41,785 bases of DNA from IMG/VR virus record IMGVR_UViG_3300045988_153314, one strand, 5' to 3'. This document shows, one piece after another, positions 1-41,785 of the stretch. Position numbers and translations under genes: made by a program. How positions within the stretch are numbered: position 1 is the first letter of the stretch; each line of letters begins with the position of its first letter. The notes under the pieces were generated by a model that saw nothing but the letters and a program-made list of their open reading frames with translations, did not search any database and was not told where the DNA came from. Origin of the DNA: a virus.

Positions 1-141
1 ATCAGAGGGATCGACCCGGTTGCTCCCGGCCTATCTGTTCGGACTGAATCCGGACTTGAAAATAGCGATTGCCTCGTATTCGGACCGATTCGCCCGGAAA
101 TTCAATCGAGAGATTCAGCGGATTATCGACTCCGAAAGATA
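1..141 (+). repeat. Terminal direct repeat, left copy (identical to 41645-41785)
   Basis: Base-for-base identity read directly from the sequence. It lies inside the terL coding frame. Confidence 0.95.
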
Positions 142-14570: not shown

Positions 14571-17500
14571 ATGATCGAAATAAAACAGGGTACTTCTTTA
14601 GGAGTCCGAATCGTTCTCAAAAGGCCCTCCGGGACCGATGCCGATCTTCGGCGTGCACGCGAATTATCCGTATGGCTCCAGCTTCCTTCTGGTGAAACCA
14701 TGCAGGCTCTCGACAGTTCGATCGATCGGGAGACGAATACGGTGTATGCTCGTCTTCTTCCCGACCGCGAACTGAAAGTAACGGGCGAATACGGGCTTTT
14801 CGTCAATGTGAAGATGGTGAGCAACCGGATGTTGGCTACGCACGTTCTAAAGATCGTGAAAGTGGTTGAGGGAAGCGAAATTAAGTATACGGAGCTGCCT
14901 TTGTCGCTCGATGCGAACCTGATCGATGTCCCTTACAACGTCATTACAACCGGAGCGTCTCCAAAGATCGGCCCGAATAATACGTGGCTCGTTTATAATG
15001 ACGAAATCAAGGCTTACGAGGATACAGGTATCAGCGTGGAGTCTGCCAAAGAAGCCAGCGAAGCCGCAGCGGCAGCGAATGAAGCGGCAGTTAGAGCCGA
15101 TCAGGCTGCAAATTCGGCAAATACTGCGGCTGAATTTGCCAAACAGCAGGGCGATTATGCGAAGGCACAAGGAGACCGCGTACTTTCTGAGAAAGGACAA
15201 CCCGGCGGTGTGGCCGAATTGGACGATACGGGTCATGTACCAGTTTCACAACTTCCGTCCTATGTCGATGACGTGCAGGAATACCCCTCCCGTTCCGGTT
15301 TTCCCGCAACTGGGGAAGCAGGGAAAATCTATGTAGCCACAGATACCAATCTTACTTATCGCTGGACCGGCTCCGGATATGTAGAGATCAGTCCCTCCCT
15401 TGCGTTGGGCGAAACCTCGGCCACGGCTTACCGGGGCGACCGGGGAAAAGCGGCTTACGATCATTCGCAGATCAAAAGCGGAAATCCGCACGGTACGACC
15501 TTCGCCAGCCTGCCGGATAAGCCTTCATCCCTGCCTCCGTCCGGTTCTGCCGGTGGTGATTTGGCCGGGACCTATCCTAATCCGACTATCGGCGCAGGAA
15601 AAGTGACCACCGCAAAAATCGCCGACGGTGCCGTGACCGCCGCAAAACTGGCTGAATCTTATTTCACTAACAGAGGTGAAGCTACAGATTTAAACAATGC
15701 TTTGTCTGACGGTGTTTACACTTTTGATATAGACGCATTGAATTCTCCTTTTGATAGAGGTAGTGTGTTTGTAACACATGCTCCAAATAATACTGTAAAT
15801 GCAGTGCAATTTGCAGTAGGTTATGAATCAGGAAATGTAAATATGATTTTATCATGTAGGTATAAACTAAGTTATACGGCATGGTCTAACTGGGTTAAAG
15901 TATGGAATTCTGCAACCTTTAATCCGGACGACAAGTTCGGATTGAATGCTACCCAGCTCTCGGATCTGAACAACGCCCCGAACAATGCCTTTTTCGTCGG
16001 CGCACACAACGCGGCGAACGCTCCGGTTGCCGATAGCTGGTCGAACGGGTTTACGATTGCCTACGGGAATAATCCGGATTTCCGAAAGCAGTTTTGCTAT
16101 GCAGGCGACAAGTGGTGGACCCGGGGGCGGAACGGTACAACGTGGTCTGCTTGGGTGCAAATTTTAGATTCCTCGAATTTCAACCCGGGTAATTATCTGC
16201 CGTTGTCAGGTAATAAAATGATTACGGGAGATTTCCAATTGAAAGACGGAGTTGCCGTACGGGATGCTGCCGGTAGGAGCGTTGTCGGGCTGCTTGATAT
16301 TATAGGCGACGGAATACGCGTAGCCCTCGGAAATACCACCCTAAAAACCGGTATCATAACCCCTAAGGGTATTCCTATATATAGACATGATGCCAATGGT
16401 ACATATACCGTTTGGGACTCTGGCAACTTCAATCCAAATGACTATCTGCCGTTGTCGGGCAATAAAAATATGGAAGGTGATATCACTTTTGGATCGAATG
16501 GCAGGTCTCTAAGGGGTTCCGATGGAGGTAATATTGCTGGTGTGTTATATGATACACCTAATGCAAGATATGTTACAGCTATCGGAACAGGAAGTAGGCG
16601 TTTGATTTTGGTCTCTCCGGATTCAATATACAGGGGGGCAGAAGGAGTGGCTGAAAACTACATGATTTACGATTCCAGCAATTTTAATCCTGATTCTAAA
16701 TTTGGTTTCAGTGCCGCTCAGTTATCGGATTTGAATAATGCCCCGAACAATGCCTTTTTCGTCGGAGCACACAATGCGGCGAACGCTCCGGTTGCAGATA
16801 GTTGGTGCAATGGATTTACCATCGCTTATGGCAATAACCCCGATTTCCGCAAACAGTTCTGCTATGCAGGCGACAAGTGGTGGACAAGAGGTCGAAACGG
16901 TACAACGTGGTCCAGTTGGAGCCAGATTTGGGATTCGGGAAACTTCACCCCGTCGTCTTTTGCTCAAACCAAAAAGGAGACCTTTCCCAGTGGCGGAATA
17001 GACAACATTACGGATTCAGATTTTACTGGGAATATACAGGCGCATTTTCCGGGTGAAGAATATTCAAGCATCTGGCAGGGGAAGGATTTTATGGGTACGA
17101 TTCTGCAACTCAAGTTGCGGGACTATGCCAACGTGCAATCCTTGATGTATCGTGGAAGCAAAACAAAAACATGGCTGAGGGTTTGGGACTCGGGTAACTT
17201 CAATCCAGCCGATTATTTGTCGAAAGAGAATACAACGGTCTACGTGCCGACCGGGGAATACAACCCAGCGACAAAAGGGTATGTCGATTCGGCTGTGAGC
17301 GGCGCTACCGGCGGAGCAATCACAGAAGTGGACGATTTGAATAACGCTCCGAACAATCGATATTTCTACAACGAGGGCGGAGCGGCCAATTCCCCGTTTC
17401 CCGATCAGGCGGTTTTCGGATTTACGCTCGTTGATGTCAACCGTTTGCCAACGATGGCCGTACAGTATTGTATGGCTGCCGGCCCAAATATTGGCATGCC

Positions 17501-17963
17501 TAAAGGCGCAGGCCCCGTGTTTGTCCGATCGACAATTAACCGAGACCAATCCGGGTGGAGCTCATGGACTTGTATCGGACAGGCCGATCCCGTAACGGAT
17601 GAAGCAGGACTATATCCGTACTATCCCGAGAAATTCAATGGCCAGACAGTTAATAGACTGTTCGTGTCTGTCTCAAAGGTTATACAAGGACCAACGGATC
17701 ATATCCTTGCCACGTATCAATCTTACGGCATACCGACCTCGCAATATGTGATCGGAATCAAAGGCTTTGCCGTTTTTAAGAACGCGAGCGGATCGGTCGT
17801 TTGTTCGATTCCTTTGTCAGGAGGTGAAGTATCGACGGGAGGCAATACTTATTCGGTCAAAGTTGGCAGTCTGCCCGGCGAAGTCGATTTGCATTTCAAC
17901 GCACCGGCACTGTCCCCGACTACGGTCGAATGCAGAGCACTGATTGAGTTTGGATCAATTTAA
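14571..17963 (+). CDS. Tail fibre / receptor-binding protein with repeated knob-like modules
   Basis: 1130 aa. Carries the ..GGVAELDDTGHVPVSQLPSYV.. fibre motif. The module delimiter (S/G)NFNP occurs six times. It also contains an internal near-identical duplication. Confidence 0.8.
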   Translation: MIEIKQGTSLGVRIVLKRPSGTDADLRRARELSVWLQLPSGETMQALDSSIDRETNTVYARLLPDRELKVTGEYGLFVNVKMVSNRMLATHVLKIVKVVEGSEIKYTELPLSLDANLIDVPYNVITTGASPKIGPNNTWLVYNDEIKAYEDTGISVESAKEASEAAAAANEAAVRADQAANSANTAAEFAKQQGDYAKAQGDRVLSEKGQPGGVAELDDTGHVPVSQLPSYVDDVQEYPSRSGFPATGEAGKIYVATDTNLTYRWTGSGYVEISPSLALGETSATAYRGDRGKAAYDHSQIKSGNPHGTTFASLPDKPSSLPPSGSAGGDLAGTYPNPTIGAGKVTTAKIADGAVTAAKLAESYFTNRGEATDLNNALSDGVYTFDIDALNSPFDRGSVFVTHAPNNTVNAVQFAVGYESGNVNMILSCRYKLSYTAWSNWVKVWNSATFNPDDKFGLNATQLSDLNNAPNNAFFVGAHNAANAPVADSWSNGFTIAYGNNPDFRKQFCYAGDKWWTRGRNGTTWSAWVQILDSSNFNPGNYLPLSGNKMITGDFQLKDGVAVRDAAGRSVVGLLDIIGDGIRVALGNTTLKTGIITPKGIPIYRHDANGTYTVWDSGNFNPNDYLPLSGNKNMEGDITFGSNGRSLRGSDGGNIAGVLYDTPNARYVTAIGTGSRRLILVSPDSIYRGAEGVAENYMIYDSSNFNPDSKFGFSAAQLSDLNNAPNNAFFVGAHNAANAPVADSWCNGFTIAYGNNPDFRKQFCYAGDKWWTRGRNGTTWSSWSQIWDSGNFTPSSFAQTKKETFPSGGIDNITDSDFTGNIQAHFPGEEYSSIWQGKDFMGTILQLKLRDYANVQSLMYRGSKTKTWLRVWDSGNFNPADYLSKENTTVYVPTGEYNPATKGYVDSAVSGATGGAITEVDDLNNAPNNRYFYNEGGAANSPFPDQAVFGFTLVDVNRLPTMAVQYCMAAGPNIGMPKGAGPVFVRSTINRDQSGWSSWTCIGQADPVTDEAGLYPYYPEKFNGQTVNRLFVSVSKVIQGPTDHILATYQSYGIPTSQYVIGIKGFAVFKNASGSVVCSIPLSGGEVSTGGNTYSVKVGSLPGEVDLHFNAPALSPTTVECRALIEFGSI
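15975..16147 (+). repeat. Intragenic duplication, copy 1 (tail fibre)
   Basis: About 85-90 % identical to 16740-16912, offset 765 nt (in frame). Most differences are at third codon positions. Confidence 0.85.
16740..16912 (+). repeat. Intragenic duplication, copy 2 (tail fibre)
   Basis: See copy 1. Encodes ..APNNAFFVGAHNAANAPVADSW.NGFTIAYGNNPDFRKQFCYAGDKWWTRGRNGTTWS... Confidence 0.85.
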
Positions 17964-20041: not shown

Positions 20042-21313
20042 ATGGCTACATTCAAAGCAGTTGTGCAGGATAAGCGTAAAGACGGTACTTATCAAGTAAA
20101 AATCCGGATCACTCACAATCGGGTAGTTCGACGACTTGCCACGAACATTTTTGTACATTCCTCTGGAGTTACACGCGGTTTGAAAATAAAGGATCAGGAC
20201 GTAATCGATCAGGCGGACGAGTTGATTCGGAATTGTCGAAAGATATGTAATAATTTAGGGATAGCGCTTGATTCAATGTCTACCGACGATCTTGTTTCTC
20301 ACATTAAATTGAAACTGCAGGACGGCGGAGGTTGGCGACTCGATTTTATAGACTACACGACCAAATTAGCCTCGACAATGAGTCCGGGTACAGGCGGTCT
20401 ATACATTACTGCTATCCGGGCATTGAAGCGGTTTATTGGCCGGGAATCGCTCGATATATCCGAAATAAATTCTCGATTTTTGAAACAGTTCGAGGCTTTT
20501 TTGGAAGACGAGCCATCGCAACGCGGCAAGAAACGTAATCAGGGAAAGGGAGGCCGGGCCGTTTCTCTGTACATGGAACGATTGCGCGCGGCCTATAATC
20601 GTGCGAAAGACGAATTTAACGATGAGGATGCGGGAGTGATACGCATACCTTGGTCTCCTTTTAAGAAGTATAAGGTCAAGCCTGAACCCCTACCCCGTAA
20701 GCGCGCATTGTCGATTGAAGCAATGCAGGCGATTATTGACCTACCCGTTGCAGAGAAGGATAATATAACCGGAAATTTTAATCGGGTCGAATTGGCTCGC
20801 GATTGTTTTCTCCTGTCGTTCTGTTTAATCGGGATGAACGCCGTCGATTTGTTCGACTGCCCTCCGACAAAGGGCGACGAATTGATATATTACCGTCGCA
20901 AAACAGCCAGTCGCCGAGTTGACCGGGCCGAAATGCACGTCCGGATTCCTGACGTTATTCGCGGATTGGTGGAAAAATACTGCGATCAATCCGGAATGCG
21001 GCAATTTTGTTTCCACAGACATTATGCCGATCACCATAATTTCAACCGGGCGCTTAGCCGGGGGCTGGCTTCGATTGCGGAAAGGCTCGGAATTGAAAAC
21101 CTGACCTTTTACGCCGCACGCCACTCGTGGGCGACGTTCGCCCGTTCGGCTGCCGTCGGTATTGAAAAAGCGACGGTGCACGAGGCATTGAATCATGTGG
21201 ATCGAGATATGCGTGTGACAGACATCTATATCGACCGTGATTGGTCGGTCATTTGGTCGGCCAATGAAAAGGTGCTGGGCCTGTTCGACTGGAGAGCGAT
21301 GGGGGAAAAATAA
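20042..21313 (+). CDS. int: Tyrosine recombinase / phage integrase (Bacteroidetes type)
   Basis: N-terminal arm-binding-like MATFKAVVQDKRKDGTYQVKIRITH. Catalytic-region strings ..YAARHSWATFA.. and ..HEALNH....VTDIYI... Adjacent to the attP-like region. Confidence 0.85.
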   Translation: MATFKAVVQDKRKDGTYQVKIRITHNRVVRRLATNIFVHSSGVTRGLKIKDQDVIDQADELIRNCRKICNNLGIALDSMSTDDLVSHIKLKLQDGGGWRLDFIDYTTKLASTMSPGTGGLYITAIRALKRFIGRESLDISEINSRFLKQFEAFLEDEPSQRGKKRNQGKGGRAVSLYMERLRAAYNRAKDEFNDEDAGVIRIPWSPFKKYKVKPEPLPRKRALSIEAMQAIIDLPVAEKDNITGNFNRVELARDCFLLSFCLIGMNAVDLFDCPPTKGDELIYYRRKTASRRVDRAEMHVRIPDVIRGLVEKYCDQSGMRQFCFHRHYADHHNFNRALSRGLASIAERLGIENLTFYAARHSWATFARSAAVGIEKATVHEALNHVDRDMRVTDIYIDRDWSVIWSANEKVLGLFDWRAMGEK

Positions 21314-21948: not shown

Positions 21949-23025
21949 TTATGCTTGGTAATATTGAAGGGTTTGAACAATCTGATCCGCGTATTTGTAG
22001 ATATCATCGAGCGATTCAAGGGCGTGTTTCGTTCCTCTTTTTTCTGCGTCGAACGTTTCCAAATACTTATTGCTGCTGTTGAAATGCAGCCGACAGATAG
22101 GCTTACGATTGTTGTCATCGAGCAGAATACCGAAATAAGATTGCGTATCGCGGTGGGCGACGCGGTTAATGTCGTCGATTTTGTTGTAAAGAATCGCCCG
22201 TACAATGTAGAAGCCTTGCATTTCTTCTTCGGTTGTTACAATCTTGCTGTCTTCACATTCGCAAGTCGGATTTTCATCCGCAGACGTAGTCTGTACCTCT
22301 GCCGGAATCGAAACGTCCGGGGAAATGGCAGACTTTAAACGCTCGTTGACGTAATCGGTCATGTACTGTTTGAACGCCTGCTTGACAATTTCGCGGAATT
22401 GGTCGAAAATATCGTCATAGAACCGGCCCGGATAGACAGGCTTAGCAAAATACTTCACGAACTCGTCGCTCGGATTGCTTATTTCTTTGGCGATCGCGTT
22501 ACGAATCTCGTTCGTGTATTTCAACTCGCTGGCCGTGTTCAGTATTTTTTCAAGGTCGAAATAGCTTTTATGAAATTCCTTCAATTTCTCGATATGCGTG
22601 TCCCGCAAATCTTCCATGTTCAGTTCAAAGAACGGTTTCTCGTCCATTTTATTAGGTTCTACCAGATCGGTATAGAACCTATAAATGATACCGTTAGTCA
22701 GTAGGCCGAATTTGGCGTTAGATACATGGTAATATCGGAATAATTGGCCGTTATGACAGTCGAGACATTCGCGCCAATTCTTGCATTCTACCAAGATGAT
22801 TGGTTGTCCGTCTTTGTAAATCGCGTAGTCGATTTTCTCGCCTTTCTTGATTCCCAAGTCACAGGTGTATTCGGGGACGACTTCGGTCGGATCAAAAATG
22901 TCATATCCGAGGGCCTGAATAAAAGGTAGGATAAATGCAGTTTTGGTTGCTTCCTCGGTTCCGATGTTGTCTTTTAGTTTAGATATGCGATCACCCAAAA
23001 GTTTGATCTGATCTTTGAAATCCAT
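21949..23025 (-). CDS. HsdR-N-terminal-like PD-(D/E)xK nuclease-fold protein (358 aa)
   Basis: ..EEATKTAFILPFIQALGYD.. then ..KIDYAIYKDGQPIILVECK.. (D...E-x-K). This is the arrangement typical of the type I restriction enzyme R N-terminal (HSDR_N) domain. No helicase part is present. Confidence 0.55.
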   Translation of the reverse strand: MDFKDQIKLLGDRISKLKDNIGTEEATKTAFILPFIQALGYDIFDPTEVVPEYTCDLGIKKGEKIDYAIYKDGQPIILVECKNWRECLDCHNGQLFRYYHVSNAKFGLLTNGIIYRFYTDLVEPNKMDEKPFFELNMEDLRDTHIEKLKEFHKSYFDLEKILNTASELKYTNEIRNAIAKEISNPSDEFVKYFAKPVYPGRFYDDIFDQFREIVKQAFKQYMTDYVNERLKSAISPDVSIPAEVQTTSADENPTCECEDSKIVTTEEEMQGFYIVRAILYNKIDDINRVAHRDTQSYFGILLDDNNRKPICRLHFNSSNKYLETFDAEKRGTKHALESLDDIYKYADQIVQTLQYYQA

Positions 23026-23150: not shown

Positions 23151-23588
23151 TTAATGATTCTTTCCCCTTGGGTACAAAAGAGGTTTGGCAGATATGATCT
23201 CGGTGTTTTCTTCGTTAACAGGTAAACTTATTGGAATGATAAATTTTAGCCTGTTAGTAGCTATATTGGTGACATTATTGCCGACATTACCATTTCCACT
23301 TATTGAATTGAGGACGCTGATTTTCATTCCTGCTCCTTTACTTCTTTCAGAAGTCATGGAAACCGTTAGATCAAATTCAATTTTTTGGACATTCCTATAA
23401 ACGTTCTCTCCTTCTCTTCCGAGAATAATTGTACCCGATGAATGTGTTGCGGGATTGATTAACGTGTCGCTCTCTTTTAATTTTGTTGAGGCATTTTTAA
23501 TGCCTTCTGTTATCTCGATAATTGTCTGGCAGACAAATTTTTCAAGACTTAAAGCGTTGGTTTCTAATTGATCATTGGTATCAGACAT
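23151..23588 (-). CDS. Small protein resembling a trypco2-type conflict-system domain (145 aa)
   Basis: N-terminal helix, then ..VQKIEFDLTVSMTSERSKGAGMKISVLN......NRLKFIIPISLP... This matches the beta-hairpin pattern I recall for trypsin-co-occurring domain 2. Recollection only. Confidence 0.35.
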   Translation of the reverse strand: MSDTNDQLETNALSLEKFVCQTIIEITEGIKNASTKLKESDTLINPATHSSGTIILGREGENVYRNVQKIEFDLTVSMTSERSKGAGMKISVLNSISGNGNVGNNVTNIATNRLKFIIPISLPVNEENTEIISAKPLLYPRGKNH

Positions 23589-23621: not shown

Positions 23622-24267
23622 TTATAACTGCCTCCGATTGACCTTCCCTTTTACTAAAAATATTTTCAGTACATCATTGCGGGGGACTATCGTATCTCCT
23701 GCATATCGGGGATTTGTCGCTCGCAAAATGAACTTTTGGCGGTCGTCGGATAAGTAGACATTCTTGATTGTGCGAAGATTATCGCAATTCGCGTTCGTGA
23801 TAACCAAATAAGGCTCTCCCCAAAGCATCGAATCCACATTGGTTACCTCTTTAACCAATACAACCTCTCCGGCATAAAAATCGGGTTCCATACTTTCGCC
23901 GTACACGGGGAATGCTGCCGTGCAGTCGTTCAACGGCGGGAAGTTTATATAGTATTGGGGTATCTCCGGAGTGTCGCAGAATGCTTCGGTTATGGACGCA
24001 GTCACGTCGATGTCATAAAATGGGATATTCGCACCGCTATGAGGTTTGGGTGAACTTTCTGATTTCAACATCTTGCCCTCTCCGGTGAGAAGCCACTCTG
24101 TATTTAAGTCGGGATATTTCAAGGCAAATTCTTTGGAGTTTGTCTGGCTGTATGGATTTTCTGATAGATGCAATATAGGCACTTGACACTCCAATATCTC
24201 TTCCAAATGCAGATTTTGAGATTTTTTTGCTCTTAAGATATTCTGTAAGTCTCTCTTTTACAGGCAT
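23622..24267 (-). pseudogene. cI/LexA-like repressor (HTH + S24 peptidase) interrupted by a +1 frame change
   Basis: The HTH part, MPVKERLTEYLKSKKISKSAFGRDIGVSSAYIASIRKSIQPDKLQ, is in one frame. ..FALKYPDLNTEWLLTGEGKM...VYGESMEPDFYAGEVVLVK.. (S24 Ser/Lys) is in the +1 frame. The junction lies in CCAAAGAATTTGCC, about 24126-24140 on the + strand. Confidence 0.7.
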
Positions 24268-26611: not shown

Positions 26612-27076
26612 ATGAAAATGATAAAAAACGAAATCGAGCTTTGCGGCCTGCTGTGGGACACAGAGAACCTGACAATCGGTGGTTACAAGAAGAACGGCCG
26701 CCATTACTACACATGGCAGGAAGCAATCGATGCCGCGAGGTCCGTAGGTAAGCGCTTGCCGACCCGGGAGGAATGGGTGGCATTATGTGATCTCGGCTCG
26801 ACTTGGGACGATGAGCTCAAGGGCCGTTGGTTCGGGGGTAATCACGACTCGGACCACAAAGGCTCGCTATTCCTGCCTGCTGCGGGCCTGCGCTACAGCA
26901 ATAGCGGCGAGTTGGCCAGCACGAGCTCCTACGGCTACTATTGGTCCTCGTCGCCGTACTACGGAGGCGACAACGGCGCGGGCACCCTCGGCTTCTACTC
27001 GGGCTACGTCAACCCGCTGAGCTACAACGGTCGCGCCCTCGGCTTCAGCGTGCGTTGCGTGCGGGACAAAGAATAG
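26612..27076 (+). CDS. FISUMP (Fibrobacter succinogenes major paralogous) / lectin-like domain protein, paralog A
   Basis: ..LPTREEW..LFLPAAG..YYWSS..GFSVRCVRD. No signal peptide. 444 nt are colinear with 35415-35858. Confidence 0.7.
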   Translation: MKMIKNEIELCGLLWDTENLTIGGYKKNGRHYYTWQEAIDAARSVGKRLPTREEWVALCDLGSTWDDELKGRWFGGNHDSDHKGSLFLPAAGLRYSNSGELASTSSYGYYWSSSPYYGGDNGAGTLGFYSGYVNPLSYNGRALGFSVRCVRDKE

Positions 27077-31552: not shown

Positions 31553-32002
31553 ATGGGACGACGATTTTACGATACGACTTTGATTTTGGCAGGCAAAATC
31601 TGCCCTTACTGCGGACAGCCGACGGAGTATGTCGATAGCGCTGCCGTCTATCACGGAATCAGCTACGGAATGATCTACCTGTGCCGCAAGTGCGACGCTT
31701 ACGTGGGCGTTCACCGGGGCACGGACAAGGCGCTCGGCCGACTGGCTAACCGATCTCTTCGCGAGTGGAAAAAACGGGCTCATTACTATTTCGACCCGAT
31801 TTCCCGTACACCGCTTATCAACCGGATATGGCCGAAATACATTCCGGGCATATCGAACCGGAACAAGGCTTACCGATGGCTGGCCGCACAAATGGGTGTA
31901 GAGTCGGAAGTATGCCACATAGGCATGTTCGACGAATTTCAGTGCGAGTGCGTCGTGGCTATATGCAAGAGCGCATTGGTAAAAGCAGGAGTTGAGTTAT
32001 GA
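31553..32002 (+). CDS. Zinc-ribbon protein (DUF3268-like)
   Basis: CPYCG...C.KCDAYVGVH..LGRLAN..LR.WK..AH..FD.. and ..AY.WLA......CHIGMF... Confidence 0.55.
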   Translation: MGRRFYDTTLILAGKICPYCGQPTEYVDSAAVYHGISYGMIYLCRKCDAYVGVHRGTDKALGRLANRSLREWKKRAHYYFDPISRTPLINRIWPKYIPGISNRNKAYRWLAAQMGVESEVCHIGMFDEFQCECVVAICKSALVKAGVEL

Positions 32003-32838
32003 ACTATATCGAACTGATAAACCTTTTTTGGCAAACACGACGTAGAGTGCGATTGTCCAGCGTAGAGGCCGACCTGTATTTTTTTCTTCTTCAGGAATGC
32101 AATACGCAAAACTGGGAGAATCCCTTTGAGTGTCCCAACGGGTTGATCTGCGTCTCGATCGGTATGAGCGAACCTACCTTGATCGATGCACGCAATAGAT
32201 TACAGCAGAAAGGATTTATCGAGTTCGTGAAAGGCAACAGGCGGGCTCAATCTCCGGTATACACTCTTTTAAACTTAAATAATTTTAGTAAAAACTTTAG
32301 CAAAACCTTTAGTAAAAGCTTTAGTAAAAACTTTAGCAAAACACATAGCAAAACGGCCGATACACCTCTTATAAGAGAAAAACAAAAACAGAAACAACCT
32401 CCTATAAGTCCTCCTAAATCGGAGGACGCTGAATTACCGCTCGAAACTTCGGGAAATGGAAATTCGGGGAAACCGAATATTCCGGGCAAGCCGGAGATCG
32501 AGGAGATCGTAAAGTTCTACAACGACACCTGCCAATCGCTGCGTCCCGTAAAAATTCTTACCGACAAGCGGCGGGCGGCCGTATCTGCCCGGCTCCGCGA
32601 GCACGGCCGGGAAGCTGTTTTCAACGTGATCCGGGCCGCCGGCCGGTCGTCGTTTCTTGCCGGACAGAATACTCGCGGATGGACGGCCGACTTCGATTGG
32701 ATTTTCAGACCGGAAAACTTCGTGAAAGTTTCCGAGGGAAAATACGAAAACAAAGAAAAATCGCAACAGTATGGAAGCGAAAGCAATAGGCAGATTAACG
32801 AGCGCCTTGCCGTTCCGAGCCACTACGAGGTTTTTTAG
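31999..32838 (+). CDS. Replication initiator / replisome organiser candidate
   Basis: N-terminal winged-helix-like region (..LIDARNRLQQKGFIEF..). C-terminal ..GWTADFDWIFRPENFVKVSEGKYENK.. is typical of the phage replication-protein C-terminal domain. Lies upstream of a DnaC-like loader. Confidence 0.6.
   Translation: MNYIELINLFWQTRRRVRLSSVEADLYFFLLQECNTQNWENPFECPNGLICVSIGMSEPTLIDARNRLQQKGFIEFVKGNRRAQSPVYTLLNLNNFSKNFSKTFSKSFSKNFSKTHSKTADTPLIREKQKQKQPPISPPKSEDAELPLETSGNGNSGKPNIPGKPEIEEIVKFYNDTCQSLRPVKILTDKRRAAVSARLREHGREAVFNVIRAAGRSSFLAGQNTRGWTADFDWIFRPENFVKVSEGKYENKEKSQQYGSESNRQINERLAVPSHYEVF
32284..32355 (+). repeat. Six tandem 12-bp repeats (TTTAGYAAAAVY) inside the initiator gene
   Basis: tttagtaaaaac tttagcaaaacc tttagtaaaagc tttagtaaaaac tttagcaaaaca catagcaaaacg. 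Translated as FSKN FSKT FSKS FSKN FSKT HSKT. Confidence 0.9.
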
Positions 32839-35001: not shown

Positions 35002-35226
35002 ATGAAACTGATAACAGAATTAGGTATGAGCTACCTACAAACAGATGACTCCCTTCCCGAGTGGAGATACGGGGCCGGTAACGAATACCAAGAGGAAATC
35101 CGTCAACTGAAGGCAGAAATAGCCAAACTGAAAATCTGCCTCGACGAGTCGAAGCAGCGCGAGGAAATAGCCCGCAAGGTGATCGATGACAAGAATAGGG
35201 AAATTGAAAAATTGAGACGATTATGA
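35002..35226 (+). CDS. Hypothetical coiled-coil protein (74 aa)
   Basis: ORF with heptad-like ..EEIRQLKAEIAKLKICLDESKQREEIARK... Confidence 0.5.
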   Translation: MKLITELGMSYLQTDDSLPEWRYGAGNEYQEEIRQLKAEIAKLKICLDESKQREEIARKVIDDKNREIEKLRRL

Positions 35227-35858
35227 AAACATTACGTGAAGTAGCCGAGGCGCTGTGCCCGATTCGTTTGGATGAGGATTACGATAAAACCATCTACAAC
35301 ATGATAGATGAAGCTTGCCACAATGAATGGATAGACGGGTTCATTGCCGGCGCTCAATGGAGGGAGGATAATCCGGTTTCGGCCGGTTCTGTGTCCGATC
35401 CCGAGTCCGACTCTATCGAGCTTTGCGGCCTGCTGTGGGACACAGAGAACCTGGCAATCGGCGGTTATGAGAAGGACGGCCGCCGTTACCACACATGGGA
35501 GGAGGCAATGGATGCCGCGTGGTTCGTCGGGAAGCGCCTGCCGACCCGGGAGGAATGGGAGGCATTATGTGATCTCGGCTCGACTTGGGACGACGAGCGC
35601 AAGGGGCGTTGGTTCGGGGGCAACCACGACTCGGACCACAAGGGCTCGCTATTCCTGCCTGCTGCGGGCCTGAAACGCGGCAAGCTCGGCGAGTTGGCCG
35701 ACACGAGCTCCAGCGGCCACTATTGGACATCGTTGCCGGGCTACGGAAGCTACGGTCTCGCGGACAACCTCTACTTCAGCTCGGGCACCGTCTTCCCGCA
35801 GTGCAGCGACAATAGCACCCTCGGCTTCAGCGTGCGTTGCGTGCGGGACAAAGAATAA
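35223..35858 (+). CDS. FISUMP / lectin-like domain protein, paralog B (with about 64-aa N-terminal extension)
   Basis: The C-terminal 148 codons are colinear with paralog A. Same ..LPTREEW..LFLPAAG..YW..GFSVRCVRDKE framework. Confidence 0.7.
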   Translation: MKTLREVAEALCPIRLDEDYDKTIYNMIDEACHNEWIDGFIAGAQWREDNPVSAGSVSDPESDSIELCGLLWDTENLAIGGYEKDGRRYHTWEEAMDAAWFVGKRLPTREEWEALCDLGSTWDDERKGRWFGGNHDSDHKGSLFLPAAGLKRGKLGELADTSSSGHYWTSLPGYGSYGLADNLYFSSGTVFPQCSDNSTLGFSVRCVRDKE

Positions 35859-41464: not shown

Positions 41465-41785
41465 TGCAAAGTACATAGCTGCGGCGCAACAGGGCGCCCG
41501 GCAAAGTTTCCCGTTGTTTACGGCGATGATGAAGGGTAAAGATTTCTTTACCCCTTTTCATTTGGTGTACTACAAAATTCTGAATGCCTTTGCTCACAAG
41601 CGCATCAAGAGGTTGATAGTTTCCATTCCTCCCCAGCATGGTAAATCAGAGGGATCGACCCGGTTGCTCCCGGCCTATCTGTTCGGACTGAATCCGGACT
41701 TGAAAATAGCGATTGCCTCGTATTCGGACCGATTCGCCCGGAAATTCAATCGAGAGATTCAGCGGATTATCGACTCCGAAAGATA
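41457..41785 (+). CDS. terL: Terminase large subunit, 5' portion (continues at position 2 through the terminal overlap)
   Basis: ATG 41457. Reads MSDAKYIAAAQQGARQSF...KRLIVSIPPQHGKSEGSTRLLPAYLFGLNPDLK.., running off the window end in frame with 2-1285. Confidence 0.85.
   Translation, partial: MSDAKYIAAAQQGARQSFPLFTAMMKGKDFFTPFHLVYYKILNAFAHKRIKRLIVSIPPQHGKSEGSTRLLPAYLFGLNPDLKIAIASYSDRFARKFNREIQRIIDSER
41645..41785 (+). repeat. Terminal direct repeat, right copy (identical to 1-141)
   Basis: Base-for-base identity with 1-141. Confidence 0.95.

What the first reader, a model, noticed from the sequence alone, without database searches (positions are those of the whole stretch)
26891..27075. DGR-type hypervariable patch shared by two FISUMP/lectin-like paralogs, in a closed genome that has no reverse transcriptase and no template repeat
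Genes 26612-27076 and 35223-35858 share a colinear 444-nt segment (26633-27076 vs 35415-35858, no indels).
- First ~260 nt: the copies differ by ordinary scattered changes, many of them synonymous (for example gat/gac, ggt/ggc, aat/aac, aaa/aag).
- Last 38 nt (CTCGGCTTCAGCGTGCGTTGCGTGCGGGACAAAGAATA): identical.
- The 50 codons in between (26891-27040 vs 35673-35822), by my hand alignment: 29 codons differ and 21 are identical with no synonymous change.
- 41 of the 45 mismatched bases in those 50 codons are at codon positions 1 or 2.
- 21 of the 29 variable codons are NNC in both copies (tac/agc, aac/ttc, ggc/tac, agc/gac and so on).
- 34 of the 45 mismatches have an adenine in one copy.
An invariant framework with variation confined to sites that would be A in AAC-rich template codons, at the C-terminus of a C-type-lectin-like fold ending ..GFSVRC.., is the signature of diversity-generating retroelement (DGR) variable regions. 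Neither copy can be the template for the other, because mismatches occur where each copy has non-A bases. I find no third copy and no RT or Avd-like ORF in the complete genome. Both loci therefore look like orphan variable regions, serviced in trans by a host or co-resident DGR or left from a lost one. They also sit in the early/replication region and lack signal peptides, unlike the tail-fibre targets of known phage DGRs.
Basis: partly seen in the sequence, partly recalled or inferred. Interest (0 to 1): 0.85.

Follow-up and report, generated by a model that had tools for sequence, protein, structure and literature searches.

The report
Phage genes rewritten by host retroelement
Two small lectin-like genes of this temperate gut phage end in hypervariable patches that match, base for base except at adenines, a mutagenic template found only in the chromosome of Alistipes-like bacteria, which suggests the phage's genes were diversified by a reverse transcriptase it does not carry.

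Summary
The two genes are colinear. They show 45 mismatches in 50 codons, split 23/18/4 by codon position, and none is synonymous.

The DGR reading is supported, because the missing template was found outside the window. Human-gut metagenome contigs carry a canonical bAvd-TR-RT cassette at the end of a chromosomal Type V pilus operon of an Alistipes-like (Rikenellaceae) bacterium.

- **Copy A (26877-27060):** 19 differences from the 184-nt TR, all at TR adenines (P about 2e-13).
- **Copy B (35659-35842):** 40 differences, 25 at adenines and 15 elsewhere. It is older, decayed, or written from a variant template.
- **Similarity to the pilus target:** it covers only the TR-coded stretch.

The window has no RT, Avd or third copy. 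The same phage occurs as a prophage in a Rikenellaceae-like contig.

Across 120 relatives of the phage protein, variability sits on TR-adenine codons, giving 84 distinct variable peptides. In this phage's own 99%-identical lineage both patches are invariant.

Best reading: these are remote DGR targets on a phage, written in trans by a host pilus DGR, episodically. Co-residence in one cell, target competence and protein function remain unproven.

The parts
26612..27076 (+). Gene A: 154-aa stand-alone FISUMP/Lcl_C-like protein with no N-terminal hydrophobic signal, in the early/replication module
   Evidence: The ORF is listed. Pfam gives Lcl_C at 30.2 bits, Fib_succ_major at 29.7 and a weak FGE-sulfatase hit, all below cut-off. 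TIGR02145 scores E 1.9e-9 and 38.5 bits against a cut-off of 41.65. There is no PHROG or PADLOC match.
26877..27060 (+). VR_A: variable region matching the external template repeat
   Evidence: It has 19 mismatches to the 184-nt TR. All 19 are at TR adenines and none is at the 137 other positions. The hypergeometric P is 2e-13.
27061..27075 (+). Conserved 3' flank GCGGGACAAAGAATA just after the TR homology; a possible IMH-like element
   Evidence: Nearly all phage-type copies continue with GCGGGA after ..GCGTTGCGT, whatever lies further downstream. The TR and the cis VR continue with CCAAG instead. The function of this flank is inferred, not tested.
35223..35858 (+). Gene B: 211-aa paralog with a 64-aa N-terminal extension, directly upstream of a PAPS-reductase-like gene
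   Evidence: The ORF is listed. Pfam hits are sub-threshold. TIGR02145 scores 32.3 bits. The neighbouring PF01507 gene is shown.
35659..35842 (+). VR_B: divergent variable region
   Evidence: It has 40 mismatches to the TR: 25 at adenines (P 1.3e-8) and 15 at other bases. Those 15 fall 6/5/4 by codon position, and 9 of them are changes to A.
20042..21313 (+). Integrase (context: temperate phage)
   Evidence: Phage_int_SAM_5 matches at E 6.6e-11. The same phage is integrated next to UbiA and LepA in a 183.8-kb contig.
23622..24206 (-). S24-peptidase repressor-like gene (context)
   Evidence: Peptidase_S24 matches at E 8.5e-7.
1..141 (.). Terminal direct repeat, identical to 41645-41785, marking a closed circular assembly
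   Evidence: The two 141-nt copies are 100% identical.

Best explanation
Both patches are variable regions (VRs) of a diversity-generating retroelement (DGR) whose machinery is not in the phage.

**The cognate cassette.** The bAvd, 184-nt template repeat (TR) and DGR-type reverse transcriptase sit at the 3' end of a chromosomal Type V (Mfa-like) pilus operon of an Alistipes-like Rikenellaceae bacterium. There the cassette diversifies, in cis, the C-terminus of a 786-789-aa DUF4906 protein that lies last in the pilus operon and is presumably a tip adhesin.

**Proposed mechanism (inferred from how DGRs are known to work).** While the phage sits as a prophage in a DGR-positive cell, the RT-Avd complex copies TR RNA into cDNA and misincorporates opposite adenines. 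The cDNA then replaces the homologous stretch at the 3' end of the phage genes. Homology starts at CTGCTGCGGGCC and ends at the GC-rich ..GCGTGCGTTGCGT. The phage then carries the new allele away without the machinery.

**State of the two copies.**
- VR_A is a clean product of this TR.
- VR_B carries the same adenine signature plus ordinary divergence. It is an older product or comes from an unsampled variant TR.

**Timing.** Writing appears episodic. The wider phage gene family holds many TR-perfect alleles, but this phage's own lineage is static.

**Shown:**
- The TR/VR adenine pattern.
- The cassette and its chromosomal context.
- Absence of RT and TR from the phage.
- Family-wide variability confined to TR-adenine codons.

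**Inferred:**
- Retrohoming in trans.
- Co-residence of phage and DGR in one cell.
- Any benefit to the phage. The proteins look cytoplasmic and lie among early genes. A diversified intracellular binding module, for instance one aimed at host or rival-phage factors, is speculation.
For: **The template and its cassette**
- A TR with its own flanks is present in at least 13 metagenome contigs, some 200-680 kb long.
- bAvd (PF22296, E 3.6e-11) lies upstream of it. An RVT_1 protein (E 1e-15) with IGNLTSQ and YVDDF motifs lies downstream.
- Cis VRs show 20/20, 17/17 and 13/14 mismatches at TR adenines.
- The locus lies in a pilus operon followed by ThrE, BioB-like and GltD-like genes.

**Match to the window**
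- VR_A: 19/19 mismatches at adenines. VR_B: 25/40.
- Gene A protein resembles the cis target only over the TR-coded part (aa 78-153 versus 714-789, 63% identity). Nothing upstream is similar, and the DNA flanks differ on both sides.

**Family-wide pattern**
- 48 copies (29 distinct alleles) in 42 viral-contig loci vary at the same sites. Several alleles have 0-1 non-adenine mismatch.
- Among 120 protein relatives, mean entropy is 1.45 bits at TR-adenine codons and 0.13 bits at other VR codons.
- There are 84 distinct VR peptides, and 100 of the 120 have at most 1 mismatch at non-adenine codons.

**Absence from phages**
- No RT or Avd in the window or in the 42 viral loci.
- The closest RT in IMG/VR is 49% identical.

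**Hosts**
- The phage is a prophage beside a LepA closest to Alistipes and Rikenellaceae.
- The DGR's ThrE neighbour is closest to an uncultured Alistipes sp..

**Precedent**
- Remote targets and trans action of DGR components are established (PMC5758913).
Against: - **Co-residence not shown:** no contig or genome was found to hold both the prophage and the DGR.
- **Absent from reference genomes:** the DGR locus is missing from all 185,579 GTDB species representatives scanned. That includes the closest Alistipes MAG, where the ThrE homology stops at the point where the DGR would begin.
- **Static lineage:** both VRs are invariant in at least 4 independent samples of the 99%-identical phage lineage.
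- **Allele A spread by other means:** the exact VR_A allele sits on backbones whose upstream 244 nt differ by 4-14%, in 5 different downstream contexts. That points to spread by recombination or strong conservation rather than constant rewriting.
- **VR_B is not clean:** it has 15 non-adenine changes.
- **Target features differ:** phage VRs lack the CCAAG that follows the homology in the TR and the cis VR. They also lack a GC-rich hairpin like the 11-bp one downstream of the cis VR. BPP-1 needs such a hairpin for efficient homing (PMC3240598).
Confidence: 0.8

Rival explanations
1. The patches are relics. They were written once, by this DGR or an ancestor of it, and are now ordinary fixed sequence that no reverse transcriptase services in this phage lineage.
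For: - Both VRs are identical in at least 4 samples of the 99%-identical lineage.
- VR_B's non-adenine divergence (15/137, 10.9%) is similar to the A-versus-B divergence of the upstream gene body (22/258, 8.5%).
- No homing hairpin is apparent.
- The closest sequenced Alistipes genome lacks the DGR.
Against: - VR_A has zero change at 137 non-adenine positions, while the rest of the gene differs by 4-14% among relatives. It was therefore written or transferred recently.
- The gene family holds at least 69 distinct TR-perfect VR peptides, so writing into this gene type is recurrent.
Confidence: 0.35
2. The phage alleles were not made by retrohoming into the phage. They were imported by homologous recombination or gene conversion from already diversified VRs: the host pilus gene's VR, or VRs of other phage paralogs.
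For: - The same VR_A allele lies on diverged, mosaic backbones and in 5 genomic contexts, which requires recombination between paralogs.
- Conserved blocks flank the VR on both sides.
Against: - Homology between phage genes and the cis target stops exactly at the TR borders on both sides. That leaves only about 17 and 20 nt of invariant sequence for crossovers.
- The cis VR continues with CCAAG and the phage copies with GCGGGA.
- Dozens of different TR-perfect alleles exist in phage-type genes.
- Recombination among paralogs explains the spread of alleles, not their origin.
Confidence: 0.1
3. The VRs are left over from a DGR cassette that the phage itself once carried and has since lost.
For: Many gut phages carry their own DGRs (literature).
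Against: - None of the 42 related viral loci holds an RT or Avd.
- No IMG/VR contig has an RT more than 49% identical to the cognate one.
- Apart from one 2.8-kb contig (L051) that switches to phage sequence within the repeat, every contig carrying the TR's own flanks places it between the same bAvd and RT genes; the longer ones show the adjoining pilus-operon and chromosomal genes.
Confidence: 0.04
4. The pattern comes from ordinary diversifying selection on a surface loop, or from chance or an assembly artefact, with no retroelement involved.
For: The pattern was first seen from only two sequences.
Against: - An external sequence predicts every variable base of VR_A (P 2e-13).
- There are no synonymous changes.
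- The same sequences recur in many independent assemblies.
Confidence: 0.01

Closest known systems
Bacteroides DGRs that diversify Type V pilus components (bioRxiv 10.1101/2024.11.15.621889)
   Same: The cognate cassette found here has the same architecture. The variable protein gene lies at the end of an Mfa/Fim-like pilus operon and is followed by a small accessory ORF, Avd, the TR and the RT. The TR holds 47 adenines, and the host belongs to gut Bacteroidales (paper read).
   Different: The host is Alistipes-like (Rikenellaceae), not Bacteroides. The same TR also matches small stand-alone genes on RT-less temperate phages. A term search of that paper found no mention of 'in trans', 'remote', 'orphan' or 'non-adjacent' targets.
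Remote or non-adjacent DGR targets of cellular DGRs, such as Treponema denticola (Wu et al. 2018, PMC5758913)
   Same: The VRs lie far from the RT and are recognised by A-to-N-only differences to the TR. Small targets consisting of a C-type-lectin fold alone are known. Trans action of avd, TR and brt from a plasmid has been shown experimentally.
   Different: In those cases the remote targets lie on the same chromosome. Here they lie on a separate, excisable and transmissible replicon, so the diversified allele and the diversifier are inherited separately.
Bordetella phage BPP-1 Mtd and other phage-borne DGRs (Hankyphage, crAss-like, B. uniformis phages)
   Same: A phage gene has an adenine-mutagenised VR at its 3' end.
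   Different: Those phages carry TR and RT in cis and diversify tail-fibre receptor-binding proteins. This phage has neither TR nor RT, and its targets are small signal-less proteins among early/replication genes. The GC-rich hairpin needed for efficient BPP-1 homing (PMC3240598) is not evident.
FISUMP (TIGR02145 / PF09603) and Lcl_C (PF07603, DUF1566) domain proteins
   Same: Both window proteins match over the whole domain and end in the typical ..GFSVRCV... Relatives are labelled as TIGR02145 family by JGI.
   Different: All scores are below the curated cut-offs. These are stand-alone and apparently cytoplasmic, whereas typical family members are secreted proteins or lipoproteins (own knowledge, not tested).

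Membership tests
DGR variable region (target of a diversity-generating retroelement) | A TR exists whose differences from the VR fall at TR adenines | tested here: met
   VR_A has 19/19 mismatches at adenines and VR_B has 25/40. TR adenines make up 47 of 184 bases. P is 2e-13 and 1.3e-8 respectively.
DGR variable region (target of a diversity-generating retroelement) | The TR lies next to a DGR-clade reverse transcriptase | tested here: met
   The RT starts 47 nt after the TR in L043. RVT_1 matches at E 1e-15, and the motifs IGNLTSQ and YVDDF are present. This lies outside the window.
DGR variable region (target of a diversity-generating retroelement) | An Avd-type accessory gene is present | tested here: met
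   bAvd (PF22296) matches at E 3.6e-11 and 43.9 bits against a cut-off of 40. This lies outside the window.
DGR variable region (target of a diversity-generating retroelement) | TR and RT are on the same replicon as the VR (classical cis cassette) | tested here: not met
   There is no RT, Avd or third repeat copy in the closed 41.8-kb genome. None is present in the 42 related viral loci either.
DGR variable region (target of a diversity-generating retroelement) | The VR lies at the 3' end of the target ORF | tested here: met
   The TR homology ends 16 nt before the stop codon in both genes.
DGR variable region (target of a diversity-generating retroelement) | An IMH sits at the VR 3' end and a GC-rich hairpin/cruciform lies just downstream (BPP-1 rules, PMC3240598) | tested here: inconclusive
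   A GC-rich 3' block is shared with the TR, and GCGGGA follows it in nearly all phage copies. Only a weak 4+5-bp stem follows VR_A and nothing follows VR_B. The cis VR has an 11-bp GC stem with a 4-nt loop about 60 nt downstream. The rules for this particular DGR are unknown.
DGR variable region (target of a diversity-generating retroelement) | Variation among related copies is confined to TR-adenine codons | tested here: met
   Entropy is 1.45 bits at adenine codons and 0.13 bits at other VR codons across 120 relatives, with 84 distinct VR peptides. The caveat is that the 99%-identical lineage of this phage shows no variation.
DGR variable region (target of a diversity-generating retroelement) | Read-level heterogeneity at the VR within one population (ongoing activity) | not testable with these tools
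   No reads are available.
C-type-lectin-fold DGR variable protein | The protein has a CLec / FGE-sulfatase-like fold with variable residues clustered on one face | tested here: inconclusive
   Pfam gives only sub-threshold FGE-sulfatase, Lcl_C and Fib_succ_major hits. A profile search of PDB sequences gives FGE at E 0.08-0.5. The AlphaFold2 model has mean pLDDT 43.8 and is not usable.
FISUMP domain (TIGR02145 / PF09603) | The score reaches the curated cut-off | tested here: not met
   TIGR02145 scores 38.5 and 32.3 bits against a cut-off of 41.65. PF09603 scores 29.7 and 19.0 bits against 33.9. The E-values, down to 1.9e-9, indicate homology, so these are divergent relatives rather than curated members.

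The most novel reading that the evidence does not exclude
A widespread family of temperate Alistipes phages carries one to several RT-less DGR target genes in its early region, and these are repeatedly rewritten by the host's chromosomal pilus DGR. In that reading the phage uses the host's hypermutation machine to evolve an intracellular binding protein, for example against host defences or competing phages. The host's diversifier would then act across replicon boundaries, and its products would be exported in virions.
Probability: 0.3. Interest if true: 0.85.

Novelty: new variant of a known kind. Interest (0 to 1): 0.66.

Why it matters
DGRs are usually treated as self-contained cassettes, and surveys look for targets near the RT or on the same chromosome.

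Here the same template matches two unrelated scaffolds. One is a chromosomal pilus protein. The other is a set of small proteins carried by phages that have no reverse transcriptase.

If trans-writing is confirmed, three things follow:
- Targeted hypermutation can cross from a bacterial chromosome to a mobile element, and the result can leave the cell.
- Phage surveys that require an RT miss a whole class of hypervariable phage genes.
- The function of a diversified, apparently cytoplasmic lectin-like protein in a phage early region becomes a concrete question that can be tested.

Tried and rejected
- **Phage reference collection:** blastn of gene A and megablast of window 1-25000 found no match.
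- **First genome scan:** the framework pattern, which also matches the TR, gave 0 hits in the genome representatives.
- **Second genome scan:** this used the ThrE neighbour and identified the host family. The closest genome lacks the DGR.
- **Template for VR_B:** a B-specific pattern in viral contigs returned only three B-type VRs. The eight TR-like units of a related DGR (RT 72% identical) match neither VR_B nor VR_A.
- **All-AAC copy L026:** it first looked like the template but has phage-type 3' sequence and a phage neighbour gene. L051 joins the TR's 5' flank to phage sequence. Both may be assembly chimeras or unmutated homing products, and they were not used as evidence of mechanism.
- **Structure prediction:** the alignment of 68 close relatives gave pLDDT 43.8, so no fold search was run.
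- **Cluster look-up of the RT:** this was meant to test whether RT and prophage share a contig. It was uninformative, because the cluster mixes RT ORFs with small VR proteins through the TR-coded peptide.
- **PHROGs and PADLOC:** neither gave a functional hint.

Full report
**1. The observation**

Genes 26612-27076 (154 aa) and 35223-35858 (211 aa) align without indels over 444 nt.

Over codons 26891-27040 versus 35673-35822:
- There are 45 mismatched bases, 23/18/4 by codon position.
- 34 mismatches have an adenine in one copy and 11 have it in neither.
- No change is synonymous.

The 258 nt upstream carry 22 mismatches, split 7/4/11, which is an ordinary pattern. The last 38 nt are identical. 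The window ends in a 141-nt exact direct repeat, as expected for a closed circular assembly. No third copy of the framework exists in the window, with none expected by chance.

**2. Related copies**

A scan of viral contigs with the invariant framework gave 20 loci. A scan with the invariant 3' end gave 42 loci, holding 48 copies and 29 distinct alleles. All alleles vary at the same NNC codons. One copy, L026, had AAC at every variable codon. It has the phage-type 3' end and the same PAPS-reductase-like neighbour as gene B, so it is not a template next to an RT.

**3. The template**

A scan of metagenome contigs with an all-AAC stretch returned 18 loci. Thirteen share one identical 184-nt sequence. 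Its flanks differ from the phage genes on both sides.
- **5' flank:** ..GCTGAGGTTTCC, then the repeat.
- **3' flank:** the repeat, then CCAAGCATCTGCAAGACC.. and an ATG.

In L043 the order is:
- bAvd at 823-1221 (PF22296, E 3.6e-11).
- The repeat at 1456-1639.
- An ORF from 1686 with RVT_1 (E 1e-15) and the motifs IGNLTSQ and YVDDF.

About 1.4-1.6 kb upstream of the repeat lies a cis variable region. It forms the 3' end of a 786-789-aa protein with DUF4906 and a weak Fib_succ_major match. Cis VRs from three contigs differ from the repeat at 20/20, 17/17 and 13/14 adenine positions. This is a canonical DGR.

The full locus in L165 (a 202-kb contig) reads: DUF3575, DUF5119, Mfa_like_1, two unknown genes, Mfa_like_2, the DUF4906 target, a 186-aa ORF, bAvd and TR-RT. 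After that come ThrE, a NYN-domain gene, a BioD-like gene, a BioB-like gene and other chromosomal genes. The architecture matches that described for Bacteroides pilus DGRs (bioRxiv 10.1101/2024.11.15.621889).

**4. Match to the window**

VR_A (26877-27060) differs from the TR at 19 positions. All 19 are among the TR's 47 adenines and none is at the other 137 positions (hypergeometric P 2e-13).

VR_B (35659-35842) differs at 40 positions. Twenty-five are at adenines (P 1.3e-8). Fifteen are elsewhere, split 6/5/4 by codon position, and nine of those are changes to A.

Codon 27038 is a further variable site that the two-copy comparison could not reveal. The TR has AAC and both copies have CTC.

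At protein level, gene A resembles the cis target only over the TR-coded part (aa 78-153 versus 714-789, 63% identity). Nothing upstream is similar. At DNA level, similarity begins at CTGCTGCGGGCC and ends at ..GCGTTGCGT. The phage gene is therefore not a copy of the pilus gene's C-terminus. Two different scaffolds share only what the template specifies. That is what retrohoming of TR cDNA predicts and what simple gene transfer does not.

**5. Nothing of the machinery is in the phage**

- tblastn with the cognate RT and Avd gives only noise in the window (E 0.3 or worse) and nothing in the 42 viral loci.
- Pfam scans of the large ORFs find a terminase, a Clp-like protease, an M15 peptidase, an integrase, an S24 repressor, an HSDR_N protein and a radical SAM protein. 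There is no RVT domain.
- Stored Pfam hits for the called genes of near-identical contigs agree.
- The closest RT in IMG/VR is 49% identical.

**6. Hosts**

The same phage, 99% identical, is integrated beside UbiA and LepA in a 183.8-kb contig. That LepA is closest to proteins named Alistipes sp. (91%), Gallalistipes (89%) and Rikenellaceae.

The ThrE gene next to the DGR is closest to an uncultured Alistipes sp. MAG (99% in the best segment, 91% at DNA level), then to Alistipes hominis (92%) and Rikenella (90%). The nearest named RT relative is also from Alistipes sp., at 72%. One relative of gene A is annotated in Alistipes ihumii, inside a prophage that again carries two paralogs.

Phage and DGR therefore both belong to Alistipes-like Rikenellaceae. 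No single contig or genome was shown to hold both. The DGR locus is absent from all GTDB species representatives, including the closest MAG, where homology stops right after ThrE.

**7. Is it active?**

*Family level.* A protein search found 734 relatives. The best 120 are all 151-211 aa and 79-96% identical to gene A.
- Mean entropy is 1.45 bits at the 28 TR-adenine codons, 0.13 bits at the 34 other VR codons in that comparison, and 0.30 bits over all non-adenine codons of the protein.
- There are 84 distinct VR peptides.
- 100 of the 120 have at most one mismatch at the 32 non-adenine codons counted in a second pass, and they represent 69 distinct VR peptides.
- On average 13.9 of the 28 adenine codons are substituted.

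Writing from this TR into phage-type genes has therefore happened many times.

*Lineage level.* In contigs 99% identical to the window from at least four independent samples, both VRs are unchanged.

*Allele A.* The exact VR_A allele occurs on backbones whose upstream 244 nt differ by 4-14% in a mosaic pattern, and in five downstream contexts. This allele has therefore spread by recombination among paralogs, or is strongly conserved.

*Target features.* The cis VR is followed by an 11-bp GC hairpin with a 4-nt loop about 60 nt downstream. VR_A has only a weak stem and VR_B has none. In BPP-1 such a hairpin sets homing efficiency, and low-efficiency hairpin-independent homing exists (PMC3240598). 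Rare, episodic writing fits all of these points.

**8. VR_B**

Its non-adenine divergence from the TR (15/137, 10.9%) is close to the A-versus-B divergence of the gene body (22/258, 8.5%). That fits an old product that has since drifted.

However, few or none of the 15 changes are silent, and nine of them create adenines. That could instead mean a variant TR. None was found.

At the same genomic position, upstream of the PAPS-reductase-like gene, other phages carry TR-perfect VRs (L023, L033, L037: 17 adenine mismatches and 1 other). The B locus itself is therefore a target position.

**9. Comparison with what is known**

Remote DGR targets, small lectin-only targets and trans action of avd/TR/brt are established (PMC5758913). 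That survey argued that remote targets are a property of cellular DGRs, because they must be co-inherited with the cassette.

The case here is a cellular DGR whose remote targets sit on an excisable phage, so diversifier and target are not co-inherited. Text searches of the held literature did not turn up a description of this arrangement. That is absence of evidence within a partial library only.

The phage proteins match no PHROG or PADLOC family. They score below the cut-offs for FISUMP and Lcl_C.

**10. Verdict**

The template repeat and reverse transcriptase exist, in the chromosome of the host clade.

- **Shown:** the TR/VR relationship, the cassette, its absence from the phage, and family-wide variation restricted to adenine-coded codons.
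- **Inferred:** trans retrohoming in a lysogen, present-day activity, and any function for the phage.

I rate this a new variant of a known kind, with moderately high interest.

Noticed in passing
L161 2637-5950 (NCBI GCA_948680155.1, contig CAPPMU010000001.1); also L159 and L160: A related pilus DGR (RT 72% identical) has eight tandem TR-like 184-nt units between bAvd and the RT, with a period of about 400-550 nt. Each has 32-40 adenines and the TR-type 3' flank CCAGCATCT. None matches its own cis VR cleanly (21-31 non-adenine mismatches). An array of eight templates would be unusual for a DGR.
   Followed up: partly
L026 9794-9944 (minus strand) and L051 541-724: These copies have every variable codon still AAC, identical to the TR, but carry phage-type 3' sequence and phage neighbour genes. 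L051 also has the TR's own 5' flank. They are either assembly chimeras between the chromosomal TR and a phage VR, which would imply both were in one sample, or unmutated homing or recombination products.
   Followed up: partly
window 26877-27060 versus L001, L002, L004, L007, L009, L012, L014, L016, L020, L040: The identical VR_A allele (0-3 differences) is attached to gene bodies that differ by 4-14% in a mosaic pattern, and to five different downstream contexts. The variable region is thus the most conserved part of these paralogs.
   Followed up: partly
L006, L011 and L019 versus window 35700-35702: B-type alleles that are otherwise nearly identical carry GAC, AGC or TAC at one TR-AAC codon, and G/A at one non-adenine site. 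Single-codon change is not what whole-tract retrohoming predicts.
   Followed up: no
RT ORFs (e.g. P0028, P0033, P0043) and the P0001 cluster: Gene callers often extend the RT ORF upstream through the TR. As a result RT proteins pick up Lcl_C/DUF8237 Pfam hits, and 90%-identity clustering merges RT ORFs with small phage VR proteins. This is a trap for automated annotation.
   Followed up: no
window 32272-32353: A 12-nt tandem repeat (5 copies) encodes FSKNFSKTFSKSFSKNFSKT inside the 279-aa ORF 31999-32838.
   Followed up: no
window 15918-17366: Internal direct repeats of 270 nt (79% identical, 765 nt apart), plus shorter related repeats, lie inside the 1130-aa ORF 14571-17963, which is probably a tail fibre with repeated modules.
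   Followed up: no
window 21949-23025 (-) and 23151-23588 (-): Two genes lie between the integrase and the repressor: an HSDR_N / PD-(D/E)XK-like protein and a weak Trypco2-domain protein. They could be a prophage-borne defence or moron cargo.
   Followed up: no
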